A DNA stretch of 64,000 bases, from the NCBI GenBank assembly GCA_964538855.1, contig CAZIEY010000001.1, forward strand, positions 18,811 through 82,810, written 5' to 3'. Source of the stretch: an uncultured Candidatus Saccharibacteria bacterium. GTDB lineage: Bacteria; Patescibacteriota; Minisyncoccia; Phycocordibacterales; JAACPR01. This document shows, in pieces, positions 466 through 32,978 of the stretch (position 1 is its first letter; each line of letters begins with the position of its first letter). A program made the translations under genes and the position numbers. The notes under the pieces are model-generated. The model saw only the letters and a list, made by a program, of their open reading frames with translations. It did no database searches and was not told the origin of the DNA.

Positions 466-493
466 TTGACAAGTTCATAAGGGAGCGTATAAT
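466..493 (+). promoter_or_regulatory. Consensus sigma70 promoter TTGACA-16-TATAAT
   Basis: TTGACA at 466-471 and TATAAT at 488-493 are separated by 16 nt. The predicted transcription start is near 500. Confidence 0.55.
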
Positions 494-499
494 TTATAG

Positions 500-712
500 C
501 AGAGAGATATGAATGTTGCAGTTGAAAGGCTTTTGGCAAAGATTGTTTGATAATAGCTCGTTACAAAACGCCCTATTATCACTCATTTCTCTGTCACAAG
601 ACCCTTTCCTCACTTCTATCTCACCCACAGTCGCACCTCCCTGTTCTTTTTTCCCCGCGACTGTACCATTTTCAAACGCCCACCCCACCAGGTGCGCGTT
701 TTTATTTTTGTG
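500..712 (+). promoter_or_regulatory. Long pyrimidine/C-rich 5' leader ending in an intrinsic-terminator-like hairpin 20 nt before the cmk ATG; candidate attenuator or riboswitch-like leader
   Basis: The leader contains C-rich tracts (ccctttcctcacttctatctcacccacagtcgcacctccctgttcttttttcccc). The hairpin acgcccacc/ggtgcgcgt at about 677-699 is followed by a TTTTTATTTTT run. There is no room for another promoter before cmk. Confidence 0.4.
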
Positions 713-1325: not shown

Positions 1326-1338
1326 ATTATACATACCT

Positions 1339-1366
1339 TGACATACAGAACCTGTATAGTATAATG
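1339..1366 (+). promoter_or_regulatory. Consensus sigma70 promoter TTGACA-16-TATAAT immediately downstream of cmk
   Basis: TTGACA at 1339-1344 and TATAAT at 1361-1366. Confidence 0.55.
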
Positions 1367-1372
1367 AATAAA

Positions 1373-1606
1373 GGTGCATCGGATCTGCTGATGCAACAAG
1401 GGTAATCCACCAGGAAATACCCTCACTACAGACGACAGATTAGTTGTTGCCTGACAAGAACAACTACTACCTGAGGCCAAATTTCTACGCGTCGAACTTA
1501 CATTCGACTAACGGCGTGCAGAACCGAGGTCTCCTGTCTACAGCCCAAACCAATCAAGAACGCAGCTCTGAGACTGTGTGAGATACGGTCGTGGGCTGTA
1601 TTTTTT
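1373..1606 (+). ncRNA. Unclassified ~230-nt non-coding transcript (candidate structured sRNA) running from the consensus promoter to an intrinsic terminator
   Basis: No credible ORF. Local hairpins include gcatc/gatgc, gggta/taccc, tagttgtt/aacaacta and gtcgaa/ttcgac. A terminal helix cagccca...tgggctg is followed by a T8 run at about 1596-1606. It could not be matched by eye to tmRNA, RNase P, SRP or 6S consensus. Confidence 0.35.
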
Positions 1607-2062
1607 TTATTTTCTCCACTTTCGAAACACCTCGATACGATTCATTTCTTTATCAATCAAGGCTTGGAATTTTGCAAAATCAATATCTGATTCAAATTCT
1701 TTTTCTTTTGCAATTTTAACAGCGCGAGCATGAGCTTCTTCAGCACGCTTTACATCAATGTCACTCGCCAGTTCTGATCGAGTCGCCAGAATAATCACTT
1801 CAGTTACCCGCTGTTTTTTAACCGAGCTTTCACGAACTTCAACAACACCAGATGAAATGGCGAGCGGAATAATTTCGTTGTGATCTGGTTTTTTGATGCG
1901 AATCTCCCCCGTCTGTATCATAGTTACAAGCGGACGATGATTTGGCAAAATGGTAATTTCACCCGTTTGAGTCGGCACACTAATTTCGGTAATGTTGTCC
2001 TCATATACCACGCGTTCCGGCGTTATGATTTTCAATTTAATTATGTGGAGTAATTCAGCCAT
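1607..2062 (-). CDS. atpC: F-type ATP synthase epsilon subunit
   Basis: 151 aa. Its position at the end of the ATP synthase operon and its sequence fit an epsilon-like beta-sandwich. Confidence 0.85.
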   Translation of the reverse strand: MAELLHIIKLKIITPERVVYEDNITEISVPTQTGEITILPNHRPLVTMIQTGEIRIKKPDHNEIIPLAISSGVVEVRESSVKKQRVTEVIILATRSELASDIDVKRAEEAHARAVKIAKEKEFESDIDFAKFQALIDKEMNRIEVFRKWRK

Positions 2063-32226: not shown

Positions 32227-32252
32227 TTGACTAACCTGTGGAGAAATCTTGA

Positions 32253-32283
32253 CGTTTTTTGTGATTGGTGTATATTAGTCAGG
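32253..32283 (+). promoter_or_regulatory. Promoter TTGACG-16-TATATT driving the YGK micro-gene
   Basis: TTGACG at 32253. It is preceded by TGTGGAGA 4 nt upstream. Confidence 0.4.
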
Positions 32284-32393
32284 TACAGCACCGATGCTGA
32301 GTCGTTCTTTGCAGAGATTGAGCCTTGCTCGACCTCTATTTTGAATGCTTGGCAAAAGTGCGATGTGAAACGAACCCCCACACGGAGATGACG

Positions 32394-32468
32394 ATGAACA
32401 TCCAGTACAGCTACGGCAAGTACGGCAAGTACGGCAAGTACGGTCGCAACACCGCCGCCGGCTACTAA
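32394..32468 (+). CDS. 24-aa Tyr/Gly/Lys-repeat peptide MNIQYSYGKYGKYGKYGRNTAAGY (GC-rich micro-gene)
   Basis: GGAG at 32384-32387 lies 6 nt before the ATG at 32394. It contains three exact TACGGCAAG repeats. A terminator follows at 32506-32545. Confidence 0.4.
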   Translation: MNIQYSYGKYGKYGKYGRNTAAGY

Positions 32469-32505
32469 GCTGGCAAACCGTGAAGGTCGCAAAGACCATC
32501 ACGGT

Positions 32506-32545
32506 CAAGCCTCGGACGCGTACCCACGCGCCCGAGGCTTTTACT
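32506..32545 (+). terminator. Intrinsic terminator after the YGK peptide gene
   Basis: agcctcgg...ccgaggct followed by TTTT. Confidence 0.55.
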
Positions 32546-32585: not shown

Positions 32586-32978
32586 ATGAAAAACTTTATA
32601 AATGAATTTAAGTCTTTTGCCATCAAAGGCAACATGATTGATTTAGCAGTCGGTGTGATTATTGGTACGGCGTTTGGAAAAGTCGTCAGCTCGTTGGTGT
32701 CAGACATTATCATGCCACCACTCGGATGGATTACTGGCGGAATTGATTTTTCAGAGAAGGTTTGGAATTTGCCAACAATTTTGGGTGTCGGTTCACCAGT
32801 TGCTGTCAATTACGGATTGTTTTTAAATAGCCTCATAAACTTTATCATCGTGGCGTTTGCAATTTTTATGGTCATCAAACAAATTAATCGCTTTAAGAAA
32901 GTTGAGGAAGCAAAACCAGCAACGACACCAGAGGATATTATGTTGTTGCGAGAAATTCGAGACAGTTTGAAGAAATAG
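32586..32978 (+). CDS. mscL: Large-conductance mechanosensitive channel
   Basis: [40 protein letters not shown] is the canonical MscL N-terminus. Confidence 0.92.

What the first reader, a model, noticed from the sequence alone, without database searches (positions are those of the whole stretch)
1339..1606. Perfect-consensus promoter followed by a ~230-nt ORF-less, hairpin-rich transcript ending in a terminator (candidate novel ncRNA) downstream of cmk
TTGACA-16-TATAAT at 1339-1366 is followed by about 230 nt with no plausible ORF and multiple local hairpins. A terminal helix (cagccca...tgggctg) is followed by T8 just before the convergent atpC end. The size fits a 6S-like or other regulatory RNA, but no consensus for tmRNA, SRP, RNase P or 6S could be recognised by eye.
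Basis: seen in the sequence. Interest (0 to 1): 0.55.

Follow-up and report, generated by a model that had tools for sequence, protein, structure and literature searches.

The report
Lineage-restricted small RNA gene after cmk
Between the cytidylate-kinase-like gene and the end of the ATP-synthase operon of an uncultivated Patescibacteria (CPR) bacterium sits a strongly promoted, terminator-ended, non-coding and well-folded ~237-nt unit that matches no known RNA family. It is kept under selection in the one close relative found, so it is a credible but narrowly distributed new small RNA of unknown role.

Summary
A 12/12 TTGACA-16-TATAAT promoter lies at 1338-1365 (+). It is followed by ~237 nt (about 1372-1608) with no conserved ORF. 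The fold z-score is -4.4 to -4.7, against a window background of -0.36 +/- 1.4. A 9-bp basal helix (1539-1547/1592-1600) plus T8 abuts the atpC stop codon.

No Rfam family matches, even at E<=10, and ARAGORN finds nothing, so this is not 6S, SRP, RNase P or tmRNA.

Only one homolog was found, in a relative with 85% identical cmk. The RNA is 81% identical there, against ~50% at four-fold degenerate sites. The promoter hexamers are kept, the indels are 1-2 nt, and a few base pairs show compensatory changes.

The element is absent from the same junction in the other clade members that cover it. Two of those carry unrelated promoter-bearing spacers instead.

Structure statistics do not settle the strand, since the minus strand scores slightly better. 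The promoter and terminator favour the plus strand.

Best reading: a young, lineage-specific sRNA gene that shares its terminator with cmk. Its function is unknown. It is a new family of a known kind, and interest is modest.

A more widely conserved sibling RNA lies upstream of cmk (about 500-712).

The parts
1338..1365 (+). Sigma-70-type promoter, TTGACA-16 nt-TATAAT, 12/12 matches
   Evidence: In the relative L005 it reads TTGACT-16-TATAAT. The hexamers are kept (11/12) while 4 of 16 spacer positions and the flanks (about 50% identity) have changed.
1372..1608 (+). Predicted transcript 'RNA B', about 237 nt. The start is inferred as roughly 7 nt after the -10 box; the end is the U tract.
   Evidence: Start and end are inferred from the promoter and terminator. 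The region is 81% identical to L005:948-1187. There is no conserved ORF.
1375..1395 (+). Hairpin H1 (GCAUCGG/CUGAUGC)
   Evidence: MFE; present in both sequences.
1399..1423 (+). Hairpin H2 (GGGUA.UCC-ACCA-GGA..UACCC). It is kept as a hairpin in L005 through several changes and a shift of register.
   Evidence: Only 64% identical, yet a hairpin forms in both.
1441..1466 (+). Hairpin H3, an 8-bp stem (UAGUUGUU/AACAACUA) with a 10-nt loop GCCUGACAAG
   Evidence: I4. One compensatory pair, U-A to C-G. The loop segment CCUGACAAGA is identical in L005.
1473..1533 (+). Domain H4: outer helix GAGGCC/GGUCUC, middle helix UUCU/AGAA, inner helix CGCGUCG/CGGCGUG, and a 17-nt apical loop. The inner part can alternatively form GUCGAA/UUCGAC.
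   Evidence: C-G to A-U compensatory, G-U to G-C, U-A to U-G. The 21-nt run GCGTCGAACTTACATTCGACT is identical in L005.
1539..1600 (+). Terminator domain T: a 9-bp basal helix UACAGCCCA/UGGGCUGUA that encloses a 44-nt structured interior
   Evidence: I3. 90% identical to L005.
1601..1608 (+). U8 tract of the intrinsic terminator; overlaps the atpC stop codon

Best explanation
The region is an independently transcribed small non-coding RNA gene on the + strand, which I call RNA B, spanning about 1372-1608. A very strong consensus promoter sits 12 nt after the cmk stop codon. The gene ends at an intrinsic terminator, which is also the only terminator available to cmk.

The RNA folds into five hairpin domains (H1-H4 and a long terminator arm). 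It belongs to no described RNA family and is restricted to a very narrow lineage of a Paceibacteria-like CPR clade.

Most likely it acts as a regulatory RNA whose invariant single-stranded segments are the recognition surfaces for mRNAs or a protein, while the helices serve as scaffold. Those segments are the H3 loop CCUGACAAG, the H4 apical loop AACUUACAUUCGACUAA, and the interior of the terminator arm AAACCAAUCAA.

Shown here: promoter, terminator, non-coding nature, fold stability, purifying selection, and absence of any family match. Inferred: that it is transcribed at all, which strand is functional, that it acts in trans, and what it targets.
For: - Promoter: 12/12 match, against 0.02 perfect sites expected per window. 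The hexamers are conserved in L005 while the spacer and flanks drift.
- Terminator: a 9-bp helix plus U8.
- Fold: z = -4.4 to -4.7 against a background of -0.36 +/- 1.4. L005 folds at z = -6.4.
- Homolog: L005:948-1187, nhmmer E = 6e-42.
- Selection: 81% identity over 240 columns. This compares with 62% (cmk, n=69) and 31% (atpC, n=45) at four-fold degenerate sites and about 50% in the flanking non-hexamer spacers. Paired columns are 90% identical and unpaired columns 75.5%.
- Base pairs: four pairs change on both sides and stay paired, and three change G-U to A-U or G-C.
- Non-coding: indels of 1-2 nt and no shared ORF or Shine-Dalgarno sequence.
- GC content: 48.7% against 42.1% for the window.
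- G-U pairs in H4 and in the inner terminator hairpin exist only on the + strand.
Against: - Only two genomes carry it, so covariation is anecdotal.
- Consensus-structure statistics are slightly better for the minus strand: z = -6.4, SCI 0.72, against z = -4.8, SCI 0.64. One helix inside the terminator arm is kept by G-U pairs only on the minus strand.
- It is absent from the same junction in L087 (127-nt gap), L088/L089 (4-nt gap), and L004 and L086 (IMPDH inserted, 57-nt gap).
- There are no transcript data.
- No target was found: the only long k-mer match in the window is a same-sense identity, not a complement.
Confidence: 0.5

Rival explanations
1. The region is mainly a shared, convergent 3'-end region. 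The structured sequence would be the 3' UTR and terminator of cmk on the + strand and a stabilising 3' hairpin region of the atp operon mRNA on the - strand. Selection would act on mRNA 3'-end structure on both strands, and the promoter would add little beyond antisense or insulating transcription.
For: - cmk has no terminator of its own before 1601.
- The minus strand gives the better consensus fold.
- An inner helix of the terminator arm is maintained by two transitions only if read on the minus strand.
- The terminator arm is the most conserved part, at 90%.
- L087 keeps only a terminator there.
Against: - A 3' UTR does not need a 12/12 promoter whose hexamers are conserved.
- Relatives manage with 4-nt or 57-nt gaps, so no conserved 3' UTR is required.
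- H1-H4, 160 nt upstream of the terminator, are also conserved and structured.
- The minus-strand hairpin has no U tract.
Confidence: 0.2
2. The region is a cis-antisense or transcription-collision unit. A strong promoter would fire against the end of the atp operon. Its transcript would pair with atp read-through RNA, or its polymerase would block that read-through and so protect cmk from antisense transcription. In this reading the position matters more than the sequence.
For: - L003 and L002 carry unrelated sequences at the atpC end with a 12/12 and an 11/12 promoter in the same orientation, and with T-runs at the atpC stop.
- No convincing atp terminator lies directly after atpC. The only minus-strand candidate is at 1321-1301, inside cmk.
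Against: - 81% sequence conservation with conserved loops is not needed for a purely positional role.
- Half of the clade lacks any such unit.
- The L003 unit is not significantly structured, z = -0.8.
- The L002 gap is also the 5' region of IMPDH.
Confidence: 0.12
3. The region is a decaying remnant of a lost gene or of a small mobile insertion, with a fortuitous or left-over promoter and no present function.
For: - The distribution is patchy, and the junction is variable: IMPDH and a 305-aa gene are inserted in some relatives.
- GC content is higher than in the genome.
- L087 shows only a weak partial resemblance, 18/24 around the H3 motif, and a CM score of 6.2 bits with E = 0.23.
Against: - tblastn finds no remnant of IMPDH or of the 305-aa protein.
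- No phage, plasmid or viral match, and no flanking or internal repeats.
- Conservation far above the synonymous-site level argues for selection.
Confidence: 0.1
4. The region is a highly diverged housekeeping RNA (6S, SRP, RNase P or tmRNA) that the family models miss.
For: The size is roughly right for 6S or a large SRP RNA, and CPR RNAs can be atypical.
Against: - No Rfam match even at E<=10, and none in the relatives.
- ARAGORN is negative.
- The architecture is multi-hairpin, not a rod.
- It is missing at this junction in most of the clade.
- The CM finds no relocated copy in the parts of related genomes held here, about 0.5 Mb of loci.
Confidence: 0.03
5. The region is a small-protein gene, or a guide-RNA array of the TIGR or CRISPR type.
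For: - Other strong-promoter, GC-rich mini-units in this window do encode small proteins.
- TIGR arrays occur in CPR bacteria and end in terminators (PMC12045711).
Against: - No ORF or Shine-Dalgarno sequence is shared with L005, and the indels shift the frame. A protein search with the 45-aa ORF found nothing real.
- No tandem or alternating repeats and no ~36-nt periodicity.
- The neighbours are cmk and atpC, not a tas or cas gene.
Confidence: 0.02

Closest known systems
Generic bacterial sRNA genes with their own sigma-70 promoter and intrinsic terminator, in particular 3'-UTR-type sRNAs that share the terminator of the upstream mRNA (such as MicL and DapZ; from my own knowledge)
   Same: - Its own strong promoter, a terminator with a U tract, no ORF, and a size of 100-300 nt.
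- It shares the terminator with the upstream gene (cmk).
- It is lineage-specific and turns over quickly between relatives.
   Different: - The promoter lies just after the stop codon, not inside the coding sequence.
- It is longer and more structured than typical base-pairing sRNAs.
- No seed or target has been identified.
- The host is a CPR bacterium, for which the paper searches run here turned up no sRNA work.
6S RNA (Rfam RF00013 and 6S-like families)
   Same: Similar length, a strong promoter, and non-coding.
   Different: - No Rfam match.
- No 5'-3' closing stem or central bubble: the 3' end is an independent terminator hairpin.
- It is not conserved across the clade.
The neighbouring 'RNA A' upstream of cmk (window about 500-712), itself undescribed
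   Same: The same perfect promoter with a 16-nt spacer, the same orientation, a similar length, a terminator, no Rfam match, and restriction to the same clade.
   Different: - No sequence or CM similarity to RNA B.
- RNA A is a long rod hairpin followed by a C/U-rich hairpin.
- RNA A is found in 7 genomes, against 2 for RNA B.
- RNA A lies where a leader or attenuator of cmk would lie.
TIGR arrays (tandem interspaced guide RNA; PMC12045711)
   Same: Found in CPR bacteria, hairpin-rich, non-coding, and ending in a rho-independent terminator.
   Different: No alternating 8-12-nt repeats, no ~36-nt units, and no adjacent Nop-domain (tas) gene.

Membership tests
6S RNA | Match to the Rfam 6S covariance models | tested here: not met
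   No match at the gathering threshold or at E<=10 on 380-1700.
6S RNA | Rod-like fold: a closing stem formed by the 5' and 3' ends, a large central bubble, and a terminal stem | tested here: not met
   The MFE and the two-sequence consensus give five separate hairpin domains. The 3' end is a self-contained terminator hairpin.
6S RNA | Binding to the sigma-70 holoenzyme and pRNA synthesis | not testable with these tools
   This needs biochemistry.
SRP RNA (bacterial small or large) | Domain IV (helix 8) motif recognised by the Rfam SRP models | tested here: not met
   no match.
RNase P RNA | Conserved P4 and core regions recognised by the Rfam RNase P models | tested here: not met
   no match. 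At about 237 nt it is also shorter than typical bacterial RNase P RNAs (my own knowledge).
tmRNA | tRNA-like domain plus tag reading frame | tested here: not met
   ARAGORN found 0 genes in the window. Rfam found none.
Independent bacterial sRNA gene (generic kind) | Own promoter | tested here: met
   12/12 consensus, with the hexamers conserved in L005. This is a sequence prediction only.
Independent bacterial sRNA gene (generic kind) | Intrinsic terminator at the 3' end | tested here: met
   A 9-bp helix plus U8.
Independent bacterial sRNA gene (generic kind) | Non-coding | tested here: met
   No ORF or Shine-Dalgarno sequence shared with L005, and frame-shifting indels.
Independent bacterial sRNA gene (generic kind) | Conservation above the neutral rate | tested here: met
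   81% identity against about 50% at four-fold sites. This rests on a single comparison.
Independent bacterial sRNA gene (generic kind) | A discrete transcript is detected | not testable with these tools
   No RNA-seq data are available here.
Cis-antisense RNA | Overlap with a gene or transcript on the opposite strand | tested here: inconclusive
   The overlap with the atpC ORF is only 2 nt (1607-1608). Overlap with atp read-through RNA is possible, because no U-tract terminator follows atpC on the - strand, but this is unproven.
TIGR / CRISPR-type guide array | Tandem units of alternating short repeats and spacers (about 36-nt period), or direct repeats | tested here: not met
   No tandem repeats. 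The only direct repeat is one 11-nt pair. The definition is taken from PMC12045711.
TIGR / CRISPR-type guide array | An adjacent tas (Nop-domain) or cas gene | tested here: not met
   The neighbours are rsmE, cmk and the atp operon. The rest of the window was not scanned for Nop domains.

The most novel reading that the evidence does not exclude
RNA B, together with RNA A upstream of cmk, could be part of an undescribed RNA-based control layer in a Paceibacteria clade. Very strong 16-nt-spacer consensus promoters would drive structured, fast-turning-over non-coding RNAs that bracket cmk and converge on the ATP-synthase operon. RNA B would be a new class of structured regulatory RNA, either binding a protein or acting on the atp operon, rather than an ordinary base-pairing sRNA.
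Probability: 0.12. Interest if true: 0.55.

Novelty: new member of a known kind. Interest (0 to 1): 0.3.

Why it matters
My four literature searches of the held paper library returned no paper describing small RNAs or 6S RNA in CPR/Patescibacteria bacteria. A well-delimited sRNA candidate under selection, with a more widely conserved partner next to it, gives a concrete target for metatranscriptome mapping in this group. It also shows that perfect-consensus promoters are a usable beacon for small genes in these genomes. However, it is known from only two genomes and has no functional lead, so on present evidence it is a modest addition, not a surprise.

Tried and rejected
1. Known RNA families. 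Rfam at the gathering threshold on the whole window, at E<=10 on 380-1700, and on six related loci gave nothing for this element. ARAGORN was negative.

2. More homologs.
- A cmk-anchored scan of GTDB genomes gave one irrelevant locus.
- A metagenome scan gave 80 loci, and protein-anchored look-ups gave more.
- nhmmer and a covariance model R1 found only L005.

3. Homology of the L003 and L002 spacers to RNA B. nhmmer found none. The CM found none at or below E = 0.1: the best score was 7.1 bits at E = 0.11, at the atpC end of the L002 spacer. MAFFT similarity is limited to short motifs such as TGACAAGA. I rejected them as orthologs because RNA A, which evolves faster (69% against 81% identity), is still detectable in L003.

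4. Pseudogene remnant. tblastn with IMPDH and the 305-aa neighbour gave only noise.

5. Mobile or phage origin. There were no exact conserved 21-22-mers in viral contigs, and no blastn match in phages or plasmids.

6. Spurious-ORF trick. A search of 1.8 billion proteins with the 45-aa ORF gave one marginal low-complexity hit.

7. Target search. Complementary 11-mers in the window gave only a same-sense 14-mer inside a gene. RNAduplex against RNA A and the cmk 5' region was not above shuffles.

8. TIGR or CRISPR-like array. No repeats were found.

9. Strand assignment from structure. This stayed inconclusive.

10. An early note of mine gave 88% identity. The correct figure is 81%.

Full report
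**Observation**

The window's first 2 kb reads as follows:
- rsmE (minus strand, 1-426);
- a 300-nt spacer;
- a cytidylate-kinase-family gene (732-1325, +);
- a 281-nt spacer;
- the convergent atpC (1607-2062, -), followed by the rest of the atp operon.

In the second spacer the scan finds TTGACA-16-TATAAT with 12/12 matches at 1338-1365. Such perfect sites occur four times in the window against 0.02 expected.

Downstream there is no credible ORF. The sequence 1372-1614 folds at -78.9 kcal/mol, z = -4.36. In a control of 47 other 243-nt pieces of the window the mean z was -0.36 (sd 1.4). Only one piece was at or below -3, and the element scored -4.7.

The 3' end is a 9-bp helix, UACAGCCCA/UGGGCUGUA (1539-1547/1592-1600). 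It encloses a 44-nt structured interior and is followed by T8 (1601-1608), which overlaps the atpC stop codon.

**Known families**

Rfam 15 gives no match in the whole window at gathering thresholds. Between 380 and 1700 at E<=10 there are only two meaningless hits. ARAGORN finds no tRNA or tmRNA. Six related loci also give nothing for this spacer.

The fold is a string of hairpin domains:
- H1, 1375-1395;
- H2, 1399-1423;
- H3, 1441-1466;
- H4, 1473-1533;
- the terminator arm, 1539-1600.

It is not the closed rod with a central bubble that defines 6S RNA. There are no tandem or alternating repeats, so it is not a CRISPR array or a TIGR array as defined in PMC12045711.

**Organism and relatives**

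The cmk protein's relatives are annotated as Patescibacteria, Paceibacterota or Nomurabacteria. The arrangement rsmE / spacer / cmk / (...) / atpC exists only in the clade with cmk at or above about 57% identity.

The GTDB scan gave nothing useful. The metagenome scan and protein-anchored look-ups gave 90 loci.

In these loci, nhmmer finds exactly one homolog of the element. It is L005:948-1187, E = 6e-42, in the closest relative (cmk 85% identical). A covariance model built from the two sequences finds nothing else, either in 0.5 Mb of loci or elsewhere in the window.

**Selection**

Window and L005 are 81% identical over the RNA (195 of 240 columns). For comparison:
- four-fold degenerate sites are 62% identical in cmk (n=69) and 31% in atpC (n=45), about 50% pooled;
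- the short spacers around the promoter hexamers are about 50% identical;
- the -35 and -10 hexamers are 5/6 and 6/6 identical, while 4 of the 16 spacer bases differ.

Indels are 1-2 nt. The 45-aa TTG ORF of the window is cut to 14 aa in L005, and nothing has a Shine-Dalgarno sequence.

Paired columns are 90% identical and unpaired columns 75.5%. Four pairs change on both sides and remain paired (one each in H2, H3 and H4, plus one in a three-pair long-range helix that I dropped from the structural model). Three further pairs switch between G-U and A-U or G-C. H2 and the outer helix of H4 are rebuilt with shifted registers.

Runs of 21 and 22 identical bases cover the H4 inner stem and apical loop, and the 5' arm and interior of the terminator arm.

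This is good evidence for a functional non-coding element. With only two sequences, however, it is not statistical proof of a particular structure.

**Distribution**

At the same junction the other clade members show the following:
- L087 (cmk 76%) has 127 nt with only a terminator. It shows a weak partial resemblance around the H3 motif (18/24), and the CM gives 6.2 bits with E = 0.23.
- L088/L089 have 4 nt.
- L004 and L086 have IMPDH inserted, with 57 nt next to atpC.
- L006 and L007 have IMPDH directly after cmk.
- L003 has a 267-nt spacer of unrelated sequence. It has its own 12/12 promoter and a T-run, but an unremarkable fold, z = -0.8.
- L002 has a 414-nt spacer with an 11/12 promoter. 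That spacer is also the 5' region of IMPDH.

RNA A, the unit upstream of cmk, is only 69% identical between window and L005, yet it is still detected in L003, L004 and L002. An ortholog of the slower-evolving RNA B would therefore have been seen. The L003 and L002 units are replacements, not diverged copies.

So the element was gained in, or retained only by, the window/L005 lineage. A housekeeping role is unlikely.

**Strand**

The promoter and the U tract point to the + strand. Several helices (the H4 inner and outer helices and the inner terminator hairpin) contain G-U pairs that would be A·C mismatches on the minus strand.

Against this, the minus strand folds at least as well in single sequences. 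It also has the better two-sequence consensus: -65.2 kcal/mol, z = -6.4, SCI 0.72, against -52.5 kcal/mol, z = -4.8, SCI 0.64. One 5-bp helix inside the terminator arm is preserved through two transitions only when read on the minus strand.

I conclude that the structure signals do not decide the strand. The terminator arm may be under selection on both strands, since it is also the first structure after the atpC stop codon.

**Mechanism**

*Shown:* a consensus promoter, an intrinsic terminator, no coding capacity, a stable fold, and purifying selection.

*Inferred:* the unit makes an abundant ~237-nt RNA. cmk transcripts have no other terminator, so they end at the same site and would carry the element as their 3' UTR.

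I consider a regulatory sRNA the most likely function (confidence about 0.5 for a real + strand ncRNA). It would be trans-acting and use its invariant loops. Whether it pairs with mRNAs or binds a protein is open. A crude search of the window found no complementary target.

The rivals are:
- a dual-use convergent 3'-end region (0.2);
- a cis-antisense or collision unit aimed at atp read-through (0.12), which would explain why unrelated promoter-bearing units occupy the same place in L003 and L002;
- a decaying remnant (0.1);
- a diverged housekeeping RNA (0.03);
- a small-protein gene or guide-RNA array (0.02).

tblastn found no gene remnant. No viral, phage or plasmid similarity exists.

**Novelty and score**

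No described family fits. In kind, it is an ordinary promoter-to-terminator sRNA gene, so I class it as a new member of a known kind. It is known from two metagenome-derived genomes and lacks any functional lead.

Interest is 0.3. The more novel reading is that RNA A and RNA B form a clade-specific RNA control layer around cmk and the atp operon, or that RNA B is a new structured RNA class. The evidence does not exclude this, and I give it a probability of about 0.12.

Noticed in passing
window 466-712 (+): A second unit, 'RNA A', lies upstream of cmk. It has a perfect TTGACA-16-TATAAT promoter at 466-493, then about 210 nt that fold into a long rod hairpin, a hairpin with a C/U-rich loop (CACCUCCC...UUUUUUCCCC), and a terminator that ends 20 nt before the cmk ATG. 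The fold z-score is -6.9. A covariance model finds it in 7 genomes of the clade (window, L005, L008, L088/L089, L003, L004, L002), with invariant motifs AGGGAGAUA, CUUCUGACA and CUGUCACAAGACCC, and a covarying basal stem. There is no Rfam match. cmk has no promoter of its own, so this may be a leader or attenuator for cmk, or an sRNA with read-through.
   Followed up: partly
window 466-493, 1338-1365 (+); 31479-31452, 51763-51736 (-): All four perfect-consensus promoters in the window have a 16-nt spacer, as do those of the L003, L002 and L005 units. None drives an ordinary long gene directly.
   Followed up: partly
window 51763-51440 (-): A perfect promoter is followed by a GGAGG Shine-Dalgarno sequence, a GC-rich 58-aa hydrophobic ORF (51680-51507, MTALCLGVYAIALGLMRY...), and a clean terminator. 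It is possibly a small membrane protein or a toxin-like peptide.
   Followed up: no
window 31479-31242 (-): A perfect promoter is followed by about 200 nt of leader, with a possible 36-aa ORF, ahead of a 790-aa ORF (31241-28869) whose N-terminus looks like phosphoketolase. That identification is by eye only and was not checked with a search.
   Followed up: no
window 32249-32545 (+): This is the most stably folded 243-nt piece outside the finding (z = -7.35). It is a GC-rich mini-unit with promoter TTGACG-16-TATATT, a Shine-Dalgarno sequence plus a 24-aa ORF MNIQYSYGKYGKYGKYGRNTAAGY (32395-32469), two hairpins and a terminator, upstream of a gene that starts at 32586.
   Followed up: no
L003 1031-1126 (+): A SAM-I riboswitch (RF00162, 44.6 bits, just above the gathering score) is present in a related CPR contig.
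   Followed up: no
cmk/atpC junction in L002, L004, L006, L007, L086 versus window, L005, L087, L088, L003: The junction is a variable spot in this clade. An IMPDH-family gene, and in L002 also a 305-aa gene without Pfam hits, is inserted between cmk and atpC in some genomes and absent in others. No IMPDH is present anywhere in the 64-kb window.
   Followed up: partly
window 1421-1431 and 1533-1543: An 11-nt direct repeat inside RNA B, CCUCACUACAG / CCUGUCUACAG. Each copy follows a hairpin domain. CUACAG is conserved in L005. Its meaning is unknown and it may be chance.
   Followed up: no
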